From: a virus
Lineage: Duplodnaviria > Caudoviricetes
IMG/VR virus record: IMGVR_UViG_3300020044_001998
Span: 1 to 29,183 of that record
Length of the DNA: 29,183 nucleotides
Direction: 5' to 3' (one strand)
The stretch's first letter is position 1. The number at the start of each line of letters is the position of its first letter. Shown here piece by piece: positions 9,183 to 15,874 of the stretch. The position numbers were made by a program, and so were the translations under genes. Under the pieces are notes generated by a model. The model was not told the DNA's origin and ran no database searches. It saw only the letters and a program-made list of their open reading frames with translations.

Positions 9183-9450
9183 CGCTCTTGCTGAATTGGG
9201 TTGCATACTCTGCTGGCATCTTGGCAATAGGGGTACGCCAGCAGAGATTCATCACATAAGACGCTATGGCGGTAAACGTGACAATGCGCCTGTCATACCG
9301 CTATGCACAGAGCATCATCGTGGCAATACTGGAGTACACGGGCTAGGTGCAAAAGGTTTTGAAAAACACTACGGCATTGATCAAGATTTTCTTTTGAACT
9401 TATGCGCTGAAAAACTTACGCAAATGGGCGAGTACCCGTTTTATCAATAA
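9154..9450 (+). CDS. Ref/DUF968-like HNH-type Zn nuclease
   Basis: GCILC...AEIHHIR...IPLCTEHHRG..GVH....FEKHYG. Confidence 0.8.
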   Translation: MNKQTQKHFNALAELGCILCWHLGNRGTPAEIHHIRRYGGKRDNAPVIPLCTEHHRGNTGVHGLGAKGFEKHYGIDQDFLLNLCAEKLTQMGEYPFYQ

Positions 9451-9883
9451 TTAGTTGCGACTTCTTTGGTGCATCGCCTTCGTGCGTTGGAATCGCTACA
9501 TGTGTCCAACGATCAAACTCGCGTATGACTTGTGCATACGGCAATTCACTTTTAATAATTGCACGCGTTACTTCATCAGGTGTCATACCACTAACGCGTA
9601 TATCTGCCGCGCATCCGCGCCTATGATCGCTTGTATCTTTAGAACCAACTGCCGCGTTGACATAGCGTGATCTAAACGCGCTGTTAACAATGATTGGTTT
9701 GTTACCAAGTACGATGCGAACTTGCTCTAAAAAAGCCGCAAGTCGTGGCAAATTAGCAAGTGCATCTATCGATACTTCGCGCCCGTCAATGATGCACAAC
9801 TCCGCATTGGTAGGAGTGTTATCAAATTCGCGGTGGTCTGTGTGTGTCAAATCTTCAAACGTAAAATGTTCTGTTAAGTTCAT
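9416..9883 (-). CDS. Endolysin, peptidase M15A family
   Basis: LTEHFT.E.L...VNSAFRS..VN.AVG....SDH..GCAADI...WTHVA has the Zn ligands. Confidence 0.88.
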   Translation of the reverse strand: MNLTEHFTFEDLTHTDHREFDNTPTNAELCIIDGREVSIDALANLPRLAAFLEQVRIVLGNKPIIVNSAFRSRYVNAAVGSKDTSDHRRGCAADIRVSGMTPDEVTRAIIKSELPYAQVIREFDRWTHVAIPTHEGDAPKKSQLIIDKTGTRPFA

Positions 9884-10359
9884 TTCTTACCGCCCTTTAT
9901 AGCCATGATATTTTCGATTGTCTTGCCTCCGAAATAGGCGGTCATCACTAACATGCCCCATTGTCCCAATAGATTAACGTATGACTCATTTACTTGATGC
10001 CCAAATGCAGACATAAGCGCAAACACGTTGTACGTTGACAAAAGATAAACAAGCGTTGCGGGTCGTATGTTTTTATTTAACCACCCATCGGATTGATTGT
10101 CCGATTTCCACCGATCAGTTACGTTGTTATCTTCATTCTTCTGCGCATCCATTGCGACTTTAGTTAATTCAAGTTCGTACTCTTTTATTTTTTCAGTCGC
10201 TTCTGGATTAGCCACAATAGCCTTTGCAACAGACTCAACGGAATCAGAAACGCCAAGGCGAGAAGCCAAAGCGGTAACAGCAACAGCACCCATAGGACCA
10301 GCGATAGCAGTTGCCAATGTGGGTGCGATACCCTTGAGTAGACCGAGTAGTTCATTCAT
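9880..10359 (-). CDS. Holin (GTA holin 3TM-like)
   Basis: APTLATAIAGPMG...W..D..SD.WL.KNIRP...AYFGGKTIE, with TM helices; directly upstream of the endolysin. Confidence 0.75.
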   Translation of the reverse strand: MNELLGLLKGIAPTLATAIAGPMGAVAVTALASRLGVSDSVESVAKAIVANPEATEKIKEYELELTKVAMDAQKNEDNNVTDRWKSDNQSDGWLNKNIRPATLVYLLSTYNVFALMSAFGHQVNESYVNLLGQWGMLVMTAYFGGKTIENIMAIKGGKK

Positions 10360-11222: not shown

Positions 11223-11417
11223 TTATATGCCTAGAAATTTGCGCACAAATTCTGCCGCGACTCCAGGTCCCAATAGCACAACGCCAATGACTGCATAAAG
11301 TAAATACTCAATTTTGGTCATGCGCTTTTCGCCAGCAGTTAATGAATCATCGATGCGACCATAACGTTCTGCGCAAATTGCCTCATGCACCGCGAGTTTT
11401 GTTTCCATAGATTCCAT
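11223..11417 (-). CDS. Small membrane protein (XhlA/holin-like)
   Basis: L.VHEAICAERY..I......G.KRM.KIE plus a C-terminal TM; SD GAGG. Confidence 0.7.
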   Translation of the reverse strand: MESMETKLAVHEAICAERYGRIDDSLTAGEKRMTKIEYLLYAVIGVVLLGPGVAAEFVRKFLGI

Positions 11418-11435
11418 TTGCACCTCACGTAAAAA

Positions 11436-11541
11436 GTTGGATTCGATTCGGTTGTTTTATATACATATCAATGTATACGTGCATAGGAAAGCCAGAAAAA
11501 TATACACATCAACATCCTCGATTGCTGGCTTAACATCCAAC
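11436..11541 (-). ncRNA. Putative pseudoknotted structured RNA of unknown class
   Basis: Five nested stems plus a 7-bp pseudoknot (AAGCCAG/CUGGCUU) fill the intergenic gap; starts 7 nt after an extended -10. Confidence 0.7.
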
Positions 11542-11547
11542 GCGGGC

Positions 11548-11556
11548 AGTATATCA
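11548..11556 (-). promoter_or_regulatory. Extended -10 promoter element
   Basis: TGaTATACT overlapping the stop codon of the upstream glycosyltransferase gene. Confidence 0.45.
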
Positions 11557-11982
11557 AAGGCACTTAAAGACTTCACGCGCTGACACAAACGTTTCTTCAT
11601 TGTGATCGTATGCCTCCCACCACAAGAACTGATTGCCAGCCAAATATTTTCTGTCTTTTAAAAGATTAATATTTTCGGGATGACCATATATTAGAGGGTC
11701 GCTAACTGACCATAATACTATTCCCTTTTTTCCAACTGTCCATGCAAGATGCTGAAAAAAACTATCACACGCAATCCATGTTCTGCATTCTGCAAGTAAC
11801 GTTTTTAACTCTGTCATTGGCAAGTCTGTACGAAAGTCATCAACTAATGCAACTTCATTAGCAACGCCAATTTGAACAATCGGTTCTTTAATCATTGCAA
11901 TTAGTTCTTCCCAAAACGGATAGTTCTTGGGGTTGCGTTTGCCATTTGATAGCGGTCGCGAATACGGCTGTATGACAATCAT
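11554..11982 (-). CDS. GT9 (heptosyltransferase-like) glycosyltransferase, C-terminal lobe only
   Basis: K.YP.WEELI...IVQIG...L...L.ECRTWIACDSFFQHLA...GKKGIVLW....P..YGH..N. Confidence 0.75.
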   Translation of the reverse strand: MIVIQPYSRPLSNGKRNPKNYPFWEELIAMIKEPIVQIGVANEVALVDDFRTDLPMTELKTLLAECRTWIACDSFFQHLAWTVGKKGIVLWSVSDPLIYGHPENINLLKDRKYLAGNQFLWWEAYDHNEETFVSAREVFKCL

Positions 11983-12944
11983 AGATACATCCTTTCAAAT
12001 GCTTCTTGCAGACTGCGTGTCCATTTCCAATCATCCATTTTTTTATAAATAGAGTATTGATCTATGTTGCCAAATATTGCTTGCGCTTCTGCTATCGATT
12101 TCCCTTCTATGACTTCTGGATAGCAAGTAAACACCAATGGCTTTTTAATCTTTGGTAATACTTTGCTAAAAACTAAATGATCACCAAGACCGCAATTCAA
12201 TATTACAACTGTGTAATCCTTAAACTTTAAATGCGTGCGGAATATATGTTCGTCATGCTCATACATTTCGCGTTTTGTTTCGCTACGTATACCGCCATTG
12301 GGATTTTTTAAATGCCACGATATTGCATTACTCACAGCGTACACGCCATAGCCACGCTTGTGTAGCCCATACGTAAATAATGTTTCCTCTCGATGCGCTA
12401 CGCGTGAAAGATTTAAATTGTAGTCATGTATGCCAGCACGATAAAGAAAAGAACAATGCAGATGCTCAACTTGTTTGTAGCCTTTGATCATGCCCCATTG
12501 AATGTTAGGCTCTAGGTCTATTAGATCAATCGTGCCAGCAACTTTGCTTGTATCTATTACAGGCGGTGTAAGAATAGAGCCACCAACTGCACCAACTTTG
12601 TCAAAGAATTTTGTAAAAGAATATAGTCGTTCTAATACATTTGGTTCTGGCAATGCATCATCATCAACGCGCCACACCCATTCATAGCCCATGCTATTAG
12701 CCATTTGGTGAATGTAATGCTGACCTTTCTTATGGGCATAAAGCCATTCCCATTTAATGCCTTTAATGTCTAGCATCTGAAAGAAATGCGCGTAGATCAA
12801 TTCGTTCCGCATATCTTGCGGTTCGTCATTGTCATCAAAGATTACTAACTTATCTACTGGTAGCGTTTGGTTAATGATTGCTTGAAGGGTAAGCGGTAGG
12901 GTTGTAAAGTAACGCCCCCGTGTAGCCACAGAACAAAGAATCAT
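11979..12944 (-). CDS. GT2-family glycosyltransferase with a C-terminal GT9-like N-lobe
   Basis: ILCSVATRGR...LVIFDD...WVWRVDDD (DxD)...REET; the last ~80 aa begin LNCGLGDHLVF...P. Confidence 0.82.
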   Translation of the reverse strand: MILCSVATRGRYFTTLPLTLQAIINQTLPVDKLVIFDDNDEPQDMRNELIYAHFFQMLDIKGIKWEWLYAHKKGQHYIHQMANSMGYEWVWRVDDDALPEPNVLERLYSFTKFFDKVGAVGGSILTPPVIDTSKVAGTIDLIDLEPNIQWGMIKGYKQVEHLHCSFLYRAGIHDYNLNLSRVAHREETLFTYGLHKRGYGVYAVSNAISWHLKNPNGGIRSETKREMYEHDEHIFRTHLKFKDYTVVILNCGLGDHLVFSKVLPKIKKPLVFTCYPEVIEGKSIAEAQAIFGNIDQYSIYKKMDDWKWTRSLQEAFERMYL

Positions 12945-13615
12945 GCATCCCACCTACATAGCATTAAGTTACAACGATTTGTTTCGCAAATTATTTGGGG
13001 CTGGTCGGTAATGTTGCCAGCCTCCGAGATATAAGTAAATTTAAAGTCTAAGAAATGGCTTTCGTTTAGCCCGTGCAATTTGTGATGCTCACCCCAGAAG
13101 CCTTGCGGTTCATTCCAAGGCACAGAAATCAAAAGCCGTTGGCAATGTTGTTGAAGCATTTTCACAATCTCTAAACCATTGTCTAGATGCTCAATAACTT
13201 CAAACGCAATTATGGTGTCCCAAGAATGATCTAGCCCGTCATTTATATTGGCTTCTTTAAAATGTCTATGCAAACCCCATGATTGTTCTTGTGCCACGGC
13301 AACAATGATTGGGTCGTAATCAAAACCAAGGTAATGCGCGGTAACTGGTAAAAACTGTGTGCCGTATCCAGTAGAGCAACCAACCTCTAAAACTTCTTGT
13401 CCATAGAAATTTTGATTTGCCCAAATGTAGCGTGTGGCTTCCCTTGGAAATACTGGGTCACCTTTTAAGAACACCGCCCGTTCATAGTTGTTGGATAGTC
13501 TCCAACGATACCAGTCTGGGTGATGTTCTTTGGCAAGTTTTAATGCGTGTATTTCTAGGATTTGTTCCCAATGGGTTACAACGCTTAACCCGTATATTGT
13601 CTTGTTTTGTATCAT
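12941..13615 (-). CDS. Class I SAM-dependent methyltransferase
   Basis: VLEVGCSTGYG (motif I), YLGFDYD, DTIIAFEVIEHL, LLISVP; small-molecule/sugar MTase type. Confidence 0.88.
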   Translation of the reverse strand: MIQNKTIYGLSVVTHWEQILEIHALKLAKEHHPDWYRWRLSNNYERAVFLKGDPVFPREATRYIWANQNFYGQEVLEVGCSTGYGTQFLPVTAHYLGFDYDPIIVAVAQEQSWGLHRHFKEANINDGLDHSWDTIIAFEVIEHLDNGLEIVKMLQQHCQRLLISVPWNEPQGFWGEHHKLHGLNESHFLDFKFTYISEAGNITDQPQIICETNRCNLMLCRWDA

Positions 13616-13618
13616 TTT

Positions 13619-15874
13619 TTATCTTGGATATGTTGCGTCAACCCTTGTTCCGACTGCCAAGCCCGTGCCAAACACAATAGATGTTCCGCTTGTAACTGTT
13701 ACATCTGTGCCGTTGACCATTTTTACACCATTAACAAACACTTGAATTTTTCCAGATGTATAACTTAATGAAGTTGTAAATGTTGTCTGTGCCGCAGTAG
13801 CAGTAAACGAATCATAAGTCATGCCTGTGGCATTGCCTGAGTATCCAGAATAGCCAGAGTACCCAGATGTTCCAATTCCAGAGTAACCAGAATATCCAGA
13901 ATATCCCGATATGCCAGAGCCAGAATAACCAGAATATCCACTTATACCGCTTGCACCATTTGTTCCATTTGTGCCTGAGTAACCACTAATGCCAGATGCG
14001 CCAGAGTATCCAGAAATTCCGCTTGCCCCGTTACTTCCGTTTGTTCCAGAAATTCCTGAGAAACCAGAAAATCCGCTTGTGCCAACCGCGCCTGAGTAAC
14101 CGCTATATCCACTTATGCCACTTGCGCCATTGCTTCCCGTGCCACCAGAAATTCCTGAGTATCCAGAAAAACCGCTTATTCCGCTTGCACCAGAAAATCC
14201 AGACACTCCGCTTCCGCTATATCCAGAGATTCCAGAGTAACCAGAGTAACCGCTTGTGCCGCTATATCCGCTTTGGGTATACATGACTTGCGTTGCAGTC
14301 AAGATTACAGAAGGCGTTAATGGATATGTTCCGTTGCCAGCAAGAGTTTCTATGTATACGCTTGCGTTTGTTGTGTCCCAAAAAAGTTGATACACATCAC
14401 TTGCTGAAACATCTAAAACATAGTTAACAGTTAAAACTTCAGAAGAATATGCGCTACCTTGTTTGTCAGGAACGTCATAATGCGTATTGCTGTCAGCAAC
14501 ATTAGTTCCGTTTTTCTTTAACCAAACTTGCGTAGTTCCAAGAGCCGTACTGTGATTTGTAAACTGTAAAGAATAGGTAATGCTATAAGTTCCAGCATTA
14601 GTAAATTGCCATTGGCTTGCAGATATTAGAGTTACGCCATTGTTGCCAGCCGTTGTGTTTAGCGTTACAGCCGTTGGCGTATTAGCGGTTGTTGTTTGAT
14701 TTGTTGTGTCATAGAAAGAACCATAAGCACCAACTGCGCCACCCAAACCAGCCGCACCACTAAATCCGCTTTGTCCGCTATAACCCGATATGCCAGAGTA
14801 ACCGCTAAAGCCAGACACACCGCTACCAGAAAATCCAGAGTAACCAGATATGCCAGAGTAACCAGACCATCCGCTAACACCGCTACCAGAGAATCCGCTT
14901 ATGCCTGATGCGCCAGAGTAACCGCTTATTCCCGAATACCCGCTTATGCCTGACGCACCACTAAATCCAGAAATGCCACTACCAGAATAACCAGAGATTC
15001 CGCTAAAGCCAGAATATCCACTAATGCCAGACGCGCCACTCCAACCACTTACTCCGCTACCAGAATAACCGCTAATTCCAGATGCGCCAGAAAATCCACT
15101 TATGCCAGAGTCTCCGCTAAAACCGGAGATGCCAGACCAACCGCTTATTCCAGATGCACCGCTAAAACCTGAAATGCCAGAATATCCACTCCATCCAGAA
15201 ACACCGCTACCTGAGTAACCAGAGATTCCAGACCAACCAGAAATGCCACTTGCACCAGACCAACCCCTGACACCGCTTCCGCTATAACCAGAGATGCCAC
15301 TAAAACCTGACCAGCCACTAATGCCAGAAAATCCTGAGTAGCCCGATATACCGCTATCGCCTGAGTAACCAGAGATGCCAGAGAATCCAGAATAACCACT
15401 TACTCCACTACCAGAGTATCCCGAAATTCCGCTATCGCCTGAGTAACCGCTTATGCCAGACCAACCAGATATTCCTGAGTAGCCAGAGTAGCCACTAAGC
15501 CCTTGGGGTCCGACTATTTGTCCCGCATCGTACCAAGCAGTTCCATTCCATACCCAAAGATTGCCGTCTGCTGTGACGATGTATGCATCATTAACTTGAT
15601 TGCCTGTTGGCGGTAAATCACCAACTGTCGGCACTTCGCCTTTGACGTTAATGCTTGTGCCTTGCTGACCGCTGTAACCTGAGTAGCCAGAAATTCCGCT
15701 AAAGCCAGATATGCCACTAAAGCCAGAGTATCCGCTTGTGCCTGACGCACCGCTATAACCTGACCAACCGCTGGGACCGATTAGTCCGCGATCAATGTTG
15801 ATGACTTGATTAGGCGTTGGCGTTACTTCAACGGCAATGTTGTTTTCGTTTACGACTGTGACTTGTATGGACAT
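13619..15874 (-). CDS. Collagen-like (Gly-X-Ser)n fibre protein with a BclA-C/C1q-like domain
   Basis: Three GXS tracts. A DAYIV..DGNLWVWNGTAWYDAGQIVGPQG module, a GAYGSFYDTTNQ...AGTYSITYSLQF beta domain, and a C-terminal FTATAAQTTF...VFVNGVK domain. Confidence 0.85.
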   Translation of the reverse strand: MSIQVTVVNENNIAVEVTPTPNQVINIDRGLIGPSGWSGYSGASGTSGYSGFSGISGFSGISGYSGYSGQQGTSINVKGEVPTVGDLPPTGNQVNDAYIVTADGNLWVWNGTAWYDAGQIVGPQGLSGYSGYSGISGWSGISGYSGDSGISGYSGSGVSGYSGFSGISGYSGDSGISGYSGFSGISGWSGFSGISGYSGSGVRGWSGASGISGWSGISGYSGSGVSGWSGYSGISGFSGASGISGWSGISGFSGDSGISGFSGASGISGYSGSGVSGWSGASGISGYSGFSGISGYSGSGISGFSGASGISGYSGISGYSGASGISGFSGSGVSGWSGYSGISGYSGFSGSGVSGFSGYSGISGYSGQSGFSGAAGLGGAVGAYGSFYDTTNQTTTANTPTAVTLNTTAGNNGVTLISASQWQFTNAGTYSITYSLQFTNHSTALGTTQVWLKKNGTNVADSNTHYDVPDKQGSAYSSEVLTVNYVLDVSASDVYQLFWDTTNASVYIETLAGNGTYPLTPSVILTATQVMYTQSGYSGTSGYSGYSGISGYSGSGVSGFSGASGISGFSGYSGISGGTGSNGASGISGYSGYSGAVGTSGFSGFSGISGTNGSNGASGISGYSGASGISGYSGTNGTNGASGISGYSGYSGSGISGYSGYSGYSGIGTSGYSGYSGYSGNATGMTYDSFTATAAQTTFTTSLSYTSGKIQVFVNGVKMVNGTDVTVTSGTSIVFGTGLAVGTRVDATYPR
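14770..15500 (-). repeat. Degenerate 9-bp tandem repeat encoding the main Gly-X-Ser tract
   Basis: About 80 triplets with varied Ser/Gly codons. Shorter tracts at ~13835-14270 and ~15670-15775. Confidence 0.9.

What the first reader, a model, noticed from the sequence alone, without database searches (positions are those of the whole stretch)
11436..11556. Compact pseudoknotted RNA with its own promoter directly upstream of the lysis genes
Seen on the minus strand: P1 GUUGGAU/AUCCAAC; linker GUUAAGCCAGCAA; P2 UCGA/UCGA; internal loop GGAU/CGAA; P3 GUUG/CAAC; P4 UGUGUAUA/UAUGCACG with loop UUUUUCUGGCUUUCC; P5 UAUACAU/AUGUAUA. Linker AAGCCAG pairs perfectly with loop CUGGCUU as a pseudoknot. 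An extended -10 predicts a start at about the first base of P1, and the SD of the first lysis gene is 9 nt after P1. It does not match the hammerhead, twister, pistol, HDV or riboswitch consensuses I recall. Inference: an unclassified ribozyme, riboswitch or sRNA, possibly timing lysis.
Basis: partly seen in the sequence, partly recalled or inferred. Interest (0 to 1): 0.82.

Follow-up and report, generated by a model that had tools for sequence, protein, structure and literature searches.

The report
Streamlined phage form of At1 RNA
The folded, pseudoknotted RNA gene in front of this phage's lysis operon is real and recurs in over a thousand uncultured phage sequences; it is a stripped-down relative of At1, a catalogued bacterial stress RNA of unknown job, and likely works as a free-standing RNA rather than as a switch for lysis.

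Summary
The structure is real. In scans that left the pseudoknot unspecified, 262 distinct cores show 56 pseudoknot sequences with 1829/1834 cells paired, and the 18 strongest covariations are the predicted pairs. P5 is optional. About 1,200-1,500 viral stretches carry the motif.

It is not lysis-specific: 6 of 142 loci precede a holin-like gene. Many copies end operons or lie antisense to both neighbours, and 20/26 compact copies follow a T4-type late promoter.

It is not a new class. The window misses Rfam, but a phage-only model finds Agrobacterium sRNAs At1 and Ti2 (RF02496) at their published coordinates (E about 2e-7 and 2e-5). Those carry the same pseudoknot, which Rfam's model lacks. 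At1 is a discrete, stress-induced transcript spanning the whole fold, which argues against self-cleavage.

The window belongs to an abundant phage subclass with an invariant GGAU internal loop and without At1's conserved P5. Likeliest role (inferred): a trans-acting structured RNA that binds a host partner. This scan already noted At1-type phage copies on other DNA; sequence look-ups found no note on this subclass. Verdict: new variant of a known kind, interest 0.55.

The parts
11548..11556 (-). extended -10 promoter-like element TGnTATACT, predicted start at 11541
   Evidence: sequence; kept in window, L001, L010, L014, L016, L018 in front of different RNA modules; not listed by the -35-dependent scan; start site inferred
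11436..11541 (-). 106-nt structured RNA gene, phage GGAU subclass of the At1 (RF02496) superfamily
   Evidence: model R1 78.8 bits; R1 finds At1 and Ti2
11535..11541 (-). P1 5' strand (pairs 11436-11442); closes the RNA; its 3' strand runs straight on from P2
   Evidence: 7/7 pairs change on both sides
11522..11534 (-). J1/2: conserved GUY, pseudoknot 5' strand (11525-11531, first A invariant), conserved C
11510..11521 (-). P2 5' strand, GGAU internal-loop strand, P3 5' strand
   Evidence: AGGAU in 95/96 distinct hits of a scan that did not specify it
11478..11508 (-). P4 hairpin; 15-nt loop with UUUU, pseudoknot 3' strand (11489-11495) and UC
   Evidence: UC and first U 96/96
11460..11477 (-). 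P5, optional AU-rich insert of the window's lineage, at the place of At1's conserved P5
   Evidence: insert in about 7/104 rows; At1-type P5 absent
11443..11454 (-). P3 3' strand, CGAA internal-loop strand, P2 3' strand
11431..11435 (-). U-tract after P1, possible 3' end
   Evidence: U-rich tail in 87/179 loci vs 10% background; function inferred
11223..11417 (-). 64-aa gene with hydrophobic C-terminus, first gene of the operon (GAGG at 11423-11426); holin-like only by weak resemblance
9880..10359 (-). holin (phrog_3427)
9416..9883 (-). endolysin, peptidase M15
11554..11982 (-). upstream GT9-like glycosyltransferase gene; its stop codon overlaps the promoter

Best explanation
This is a phage gene for a compact pseudoknotted RNA of the At1/Ti2 (RF02496) superfamily that likely acts as a free, uncleaved transcript and likely works through its folded surface, binding a host partner (most likely a protein) during infection, not by gating lysis. 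Shown: the fold (P1-P4 plus a 7-bp pseudoknot between J1/2 and L4), kinship to At1/Ti2, placement in many unrelated gene contexts, and discrete stress-induced transcription of the bacterial relative At1. Inferred: P1/P2 stack, P4 folds back, the invariant UUUU forms U-A-U triples with the invariant A-U end of the pseudoknot, and this docks on the GGAU/CAAA loop. Phages would then express the RNA from whatever strong promoter or operon end is at hand, to supply or mimic a host general-stress RNA function. The partner is not identified. Free-standing At1-family RNA: about 0.8; host-partner-binding mechanism as stated: about 0.5.
For: Fold. Pseudoknot pairs 3-7 vary freely while A1-U, GUY, C, UUUU, UC and GGAU stay fixed, so selection acts on shape, not on a seed sequence. 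Stand-alone units: 20/26 compact copies have TAAATA 10-13 nt before GUYA (1.5% background); 17/179 loci have both neighbours on the other strand. No partner gene: the largest protein cluster is in 38/179 loci. Copies are stacked with other RNA modules and tRNAs; L010, L014, L016 carry 1-2 extra modules between the same promoter and the same RNA. Kinship: R1, built from phage-type copies only, finds At1 (30 bits, E 1.7e-7) and Ti2 (21.7 bits, E 2.4e-5) at their published coordinates; RF02496 aligns full length to member L622 (26.3 bits) and to bridging phage copies L635/L711 (51 and 50 bits). The pseudoknot also covaries in the At1 type (A3: 96.4% paired, 5/7 pairs; 109/120 viral loci 7/7). At1: 113 nt by dRNA-seq, 115 nt by Northern, highest at high OD (PMC3384568); 118 nt by RACE, RPKM 45 log, 866 stationary, 3597 AB medium, kept after TEX (PMC3738593). 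GGAAC-N16/17-[CG]NNT precedes 8/13 bacterial copies (1.5% background; EcfG consensus GGAAC-N16-CGTT in PMC7083833).
Against: No expression or binding data exist for the phage subclass. The window gives no RF02496 hit even at E<=10, lacks At1's conserved P5 and has a different internal loop, so function may have diverged from At1. R1 E-values are rough. 57/153 long-type copies abut an upstream gene within 40 nt and 87/179 have a U-tail, which also fits a gene-end role. A -10-like box is only modestly enriched before long-type copies (27/153 vs 6% background). The triple-helix and docking model rests on invariance alone; no covarying tertiary pair beyond the pseudoknot was found.
Confidence: 0.52

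Rival explanations
1. A cis-acting gene-end or stabilising element: the rigid fold terminates transcription or blocks exonucleases and so tunes the ratio of upstream to downstream mRNA (for example ssDNA-binding protein vs polymerase).
For: 57/153 long-type copies lie within 40 nt of an upstream same-strand gene, often an ssDNA-binding protein or exonuclease gene. U-tail in 87/179. Many copies end an operon facing a convergent gene.
Against: Copies with their own late promoter, antisense to both neighbours. At1 and Ti2 are discrete transcripts. About 20 fixed core bases are more than a terminator needs (inference).
Confidence: 0.18
2. A free aptamer: the RNA binds a small molecule (a stress or defence signalling nucleotide) in the pseudoknot/triple-helix pocket and acts as a sponge or sensor in trans.
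For: Fixed unpaired bases cluster at the P1/P2/pseudoknot junction. The topology resembles ligand-binding pseudoknots such as c-di-GMP-II and THF (recalled, not tested). Stress-promoter link in bacteria.
Against: No riboswitch model matches. No expression platform or coherent downstream pathway to name a ligand.
Confidence: 0.12
3. A self-cleaving ribozyme of a new class that processes phage transcripts.
For: Small, pseudoknotted, many invariant bases, intergenic in phage operons and next to tRNAs.
Against: At1 and Ti2 are not among the eight sRNAs with several Northern bands (PMC3384568) and At1 RACE ends span the whole fold. No permuted form in two scans (0/37; none seen among 102 loci). No known ribozyme in 40 loci scanned. 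The phage-specific GGAU loop could still be catalytic.
Confidence: 0.07
4. A 5' riboswitch or leader that times lysis.
For: In the window it starts the transcript and sits 9 nt before a ribosome-binding site; 58/179 loci have a same-strand gene within 60 nt; At1 lies 51 nt before ligD.
Against: Holin-like gene next in 6/142. About 30 loci have a convergent gene next (39 by mechanical call, at least 6 contradicted). No conserved anti-SD or terminator platform.
Confidence: 0.05
5. A base-pairing sRNA, or a pRNA-like multimer in which the two pseudoknot strands pair between molecules.
For: At1 was catalogued as an sRNA. Covariation cannot tell intra- from intermolecular pairing.
Against: No conserved single-stranded seed: variable positions covary as pairs. 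Fixed spacings fit an intramolecular fold. It occurs on plasmids and chromosomes and in unrelated phage contexts.
Confidence: 0.06

Closest known systems
Rfam RF02496 Atu_At1: Agrobacterium fabrum C58 sRNAs At1 (pAT_55271R) and Ti2 (PMC3384568, PMC3738593)
   Same: Order and spacing of P1, GUYA, 7-nt pseudoknot strand, C, P2, internal loop, P3, P4 with UUUU-pseudoknot-UC loop. At1 and Ti2 even read GGAUG at the loop. Reciprocal model hits.
   Different: The window's subclass lacks the conserved At1 P5 segment, has a shorter P2 and an invariant 4x4 GGAU/CAAA loop where bacterial At1 copies have a variable loop, and uses sigma70-like or T4-late promoters rather than EcfG-type ones. It scores below the cut-off. 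Rfam draws a hairpin where the pseudoknot strand lies.
c-di-GMP-II and THF riboswitch aptamers (recalled)
   Same: A distal hairpin loop folds back to pair with a strand at the P1/P2 junction.
   Different: No model match; pseudoknot strand on the 5' side; no regulon or expression platform.
Pistol, twister and hammerhead ribozymes
   Same: Small pseudoknotted RNAs in phage intergenic regions (PMC10085705).
   Different: No model match; hammerhead CUGAnGA/GAAA blocks absent; pistol-like order not found; relatives appear uncleaved.
Orphan structured ncRNAs drum, skipping-rope, FuFi-1, DUF3800-I, ROOL, raiA (PMC5737381 passages)
   Same: Riboswitch-like complexity without a 5'-UTR role; sometimes beside tRNAs or in prophages; function unknown.
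   Different: Different folds, no Rfam match; no single partner protein here, unlike drum, skipping-rope and DUF3800-I.

Membership tests
RF02496 Atu_At1 | Rfam gathering score of 60 bits | tested here: not met
   window: no hit at E<=10; 1 of 20 members hit weakly, L622 26.3 bits
RF02496 Atu_At1 | reciprocal detection: a model built without At1 finds the founding members | tested here: met
   At1 30 bits E 1.7e-7 in 11.7 kb; Ti2 21.7 bits E 2.4e-5 in 3.5 kb; both RF02496 members
RF02496 Atu_At1 | shared core: P1-P4, GUYA, UUUU..UC loop, J1/2-L4 pseudoknot | tested here: met
RF02496 Atu_At1 | conserved P5 segment of the At1 consensus | tested here: not met
   window has an unrelated AU-rich hairpin; most subclass members have a short linker
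RF02496 Atu_At1 | EcfG-type general-stress promoter (trait of bacterial copies) | tested here: not met
   8/13 bacterial copies; the window has an extended -10 instead
RF02496 Atu_At1 | discrete transcript of about 110 nt | not testable with these tools
   no RNA holder on record; contigs cannot show ends
known self-cleaving ribozymes | match to Rfam models or catalytic consensus | tested here: not met
known self-cleaving ribozymes | natural circular permutations (seen in hammerhead and twister) | tested here: not met
   two permutations scanned, none found; not required of every class
known self-cleaving ribozymes | site-specific self-cleavage | not testable with these tools
   indirect: At1 and Ti2 run full length
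riboswitch | consistent 5'-UTR position before functionally coherent genes | tested here: not met
riboswitch | ligand binding | not testable with these tools
   needs probing

The most novel reading that the evidence does not exclude
At1, Ti2 and well over a thousand phage copies form one widespread class of free pseudoknot/triple-helix RNAs that bind a stress or anti-phage signalling molecule or a defence protein, and aquatic phages have streamlined it into an RNA sponge or decoy that they stack in shuffled RNA cassettes behind early and late promoters.
Probability: 0.15. Interest if true: 0.88.

Novelty: new variant of a known kind. Interest (0 to 1): 0.55.

Why it matters
At1 and Ti2 are validated Agrobacterium RNAs for which I found no described function. 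This subclass supplies deep covariation that corrects the Rfam structure (adds the pseudoknot) and defines a minimal 62-75-nt core with about 20 fixed bases. It shows that phages carry this form roughly ten times as often as the At1-type form (about 1,200-1,500 vs about 160 viral stretches, by different patterns). No cultured phage carries it in my searches, but the link to genetically tractable alphaproteobacteria makes its function directly testable. If phages use it as a decoy, it would be a new kind of RNA-based host manipulation.

Tried and rejected
Rfam at gathering level: nothing in the window or, apart from tRNAs, in 40 phage loci; the link came only through two variant loci.

blastn against GenBank phages with four members: only short chance matches or none. 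Four related uncultured spring phages lack it (0/4). blastn against plasmids: one chance match.

GTDB pattern scan: 4 true copies of 11 hits, on short MAG contigs. L271 is a chance hit that was left in A1 and R1. R1 over two betaproteobacterial families: 2/151 and 1/151 genomes, seeds included, so no common host copy of this subclass in those searched.

Expression: no RNA holder listed. In run X4 (probably DNA) short contigs cover the motif and one ends at 11541, but contigs cannot show ends; not used as evidence.

tRNA mimicry: CC follows P1 at discriminator distance in 57/194 vs 2-9 at offsets of 2 or more, but NCCA in only 3 of the 179 with P1 of 5-9 bp, and P1 length runs 4-12; not pursued.

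Likeness of AGGAUG to CsrA sites or rRNA, and of the U-rich loop to the telomerase pseudoknot: recalled, untested, kept only as analogy. Extra pairs GGA/UCY and RAA/UUU are possible but cannot be tested for lack of variation. One search used a mis-registered structure and was replaced.

Literature: searches found no description of this subclass or of the At1 pseudoknot. The alignments of Fremin 2023 (8,495 DNA-virus candidates) and the supplement of Weinberg 2017 could not be read, so a prior listing there is not excluded.

Full report
Observation. Folding of the single sequence does not favour them: z -1.04, and the proposed nested fold is -20.3 against an MFE of -24.3 kcal/mol, with the pseudoknot duplex at -9.3. 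Rfam 15 gives no hit in the window at gathering level, and only a chance miRNA at E<=10 over 401 bases.

Homologues. A 16-base pattern gave 19 viral loci, 8 of them true. A pattern fixing both pseudoknot strands gave about 400 stretches. A pattern leaving them free gave about 1,500, with matched changes on both strands. The metagenome scan gave about 1,200; 110 of 120 loci pair 7/7 and 113 pair at least 6/7, one of these probably by chance. These estimates count stored stretches, not species.

Covariation. On alignment A1 (104 rows, including chance hit L271) 95.5% of cells pair against 67% shuffled; the pseudoknot is fully paired and 6 of 7 pairs change on both sides. On 262 distinct cores from pseudoknot-free scans (effective number 82; filtered at 6/7 or better) there are 56 pseudoknot strands, 1829 of 1834 cells pair, and the 18 highest MI-APC pairs are the predicted ones. 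G-U outnumbers A-C 110 to 2, which fixes the strand. To avoid circularity I scanned once without the AGGATG block: 105 of 120 loci were assigned, 96 distinct; AGGAU 95/96, C after the pseudoknot, first U and UC 96/96; the first P3 pair changes to A-U in 5. P5 is an optional insert. A compact form of 62-65 nt with short P3/P4 exists.

Context. The first downstream gene has no family hit and only a weak XhlA-like neighbour; holin and endolysin come fourth and fifth. Across 142 loci with long flanks only 6 have a holin-like gene next. Upstream neighbours include a PD-(D/E)XK exonuclease (28), Enc34/Gp2.5-type (4) and DUF669 (3) ssDNA-binding proteins, two unnamed families (16 and 15) that I take for ssDNA-binding proteins from their place before the polymerase or exonuclease (inference), DUF968, terminases, capsid and endolysin. 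Among 179 loci the largest protein cluster occurs in 38. The next gene is convergent in 39 by mechanical call (at least 6 contradicted), both neighbours are antisense in 17, and 58 have a same-strand gene within 60 nt. TAAATA, the T4 late-promoter core (recalled), lies 10-13 nt before GUYA in 20 of 26 compact copies against 1.5% background. Close relatives L010, L014 and L016 carry one or two further structured modules between the same promoter and the same RNA. The window therefore holds one unit of a shuffled RNA cassette that happens to head the lysis operon. One chromosomal copy lies beside pyrG in a Methylophilaceae genome.

Identity. Two variant loci hit RF02496 Atu_At1 at 51 and 50 bits, and the consensus shows the same core. 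A canonical member aligns full length at 26.3 bits (1 of 20 tested); the window gives no hit. Model R1, built without At1, finds At1 on the At plasmid at 30 bits, E 1.7e-7 and Ti2 on the Ti plasmid at 21.7 bits, E 2.4e-5, both at their published coordinates; both are RF02496 members. Both have the 7-bp pseudoknot and GGAUG. RF02496 occurs in 11 of 151 genomes of one alphaproteobacterial order and 4 of 151 across the phylum. The pseudoknot covaries there too, though Rfam draws a hairpin. An EcfG-like motif precedes 8 of 13 bacterial copies against 1.5% background, with near misses in others (consensus from PMC7083833 passages). At1-type copies also occur in about 160 viral stretches; 109 of 120 pair 7/7, and 12 of 65 with context lie near a ferritin/Dps-like gene. 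The window's subclass differs by lacking the At1 P5 segment and by its fixed GGAU/CAAA loop. I file it as a variant, not a member by Rfam's threshold.

What is known of the relatives. Wilms 2012 (PMC3384568; passages and two supplement rows): At1 113 nt by dRNA-seq and 115 nt by Northern, strongest at high density; Ti2 113 nt, induced through VirA/VirG; neither is among the eight RNAs with several bands. Lee 2013 (PMC3738593; passages with a Table 4 row): pAT_55271R 118 nt by RACE, about 140 nt by Northern, RPKM 45, 866, 3597 and 877 across log, stationary, AB and induced, similar after TEX. Schlueter 2013 (PMC3616915; passages) reports RpoE2 motifs before 23 sRNAs, with no link to At1 seen. 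No function for At1 turned up in these passages.

Mechanism. Free variation of pseudoknot pairs 3-7 with fixed flanks points to selection on a three-dimensional surface. I infer that P4 folds back along P3, that UUUU forms triples with the fixed A-U end of the pseudoknot, and that this packs on the internal loop; no covarying tertiary pair confirms it. With stand-alone transcription units, no partner gene and uncleaved stress-induced relatives, the best reading is a trans-acting structured RNA that binds a host partner (0.52). Rivals: gene-end or stabilising element (0.18; 57/153 abut an upstream gene, U-tail 87/179), free aptamer (0.12), ribozyme (0.07; no permutations), base-pairing or multimer (0.06), lysis riboswitch (0.05).

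Novelty. Ten paper searches found no account of this subclass. Fremin 2023 (PMC10690425; passages, first parts of two tables) may list it among 8,495 candidates whose alignments I could not read. The Weinberg 2017 supplement was also unreadable (passages only). Eckert 2023 (parts 1 and 3 of 8, supplement search) shows no match. This scan already holds nine notes on At1 (eight shown), seen after I had made the link. Sequence look-ups with two members of this subclass found none. Verdict: real; new variant of a known kind; interest 0.55.

Noticed in passing
L010, L014, L016, L017, L018, L030, L034, L067, L073 (upstream or downstream of the motif): Module B: a hairpin with a conserved base (CACGCAUGRGGAYU ... 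CAGCCGUG) and a freely variable top; 26 distinct matches among fetched loci, sometimes twice per locus; no Rfam hit.
   Followed up: partly
L014, L016, L017, L023, L030, L067, L133, L163, L458: Module C: about 90 nt, hairpin loop GUUAGCG with a downstream CUGCU segment that could form a pseudoknot; no Rfam hit. The window lacks B and C; a shared GTTGG start suggests loss or gain by microhomology.
   Followed up: partly
L145, L167, L171, L174, L184, L157, L206 (just upstream of the motif): Further G-rich/C-rich closed modules (types with GGGGAAAGC, CCUUCAC or AACAAAAGG) between the exonuclease gene and the motif, many ending in ACC; no Rfam hit.
   Followed up: no
L466:1170-1365 and 1790-1985 (G071:C135, between an aldolase-type gene and pyrG): A chromosomal copy of the motif is flanked by two diverged ~165-nt direct repeats that look like another uncatalogued structured RNA.
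   Followed up: partly
L713:5162-5275: At1 lies 51 nt upstream of ligD in a Ku/LigD/Hsp20 cluster; other bacterial copies neighbour DUF892 ferritin-like or LysE genes.
   Followed up: partly
window 11554-15874 (minus strand): GT9, GT2 and methyltransferase genes follow a 751-aa Gly-X-Ser repeat fibre gene; earlier scan notes describe this pairing as possible virion glycosylation.
   Followed up: no
L188, L197, L485, L487, L019, L059, L071; At1-type L635, L711, L781: Dps/ferritin-like (DUF5856, phrog_858) genes recur next to both subclasses, echoing the stress context in bacteria.
   Followed up: partly
194 distinct members, bases after P1: CC follows P1 at tRNA discriminator distance in 57/194, but CCA is rare.
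   Followed up: partly
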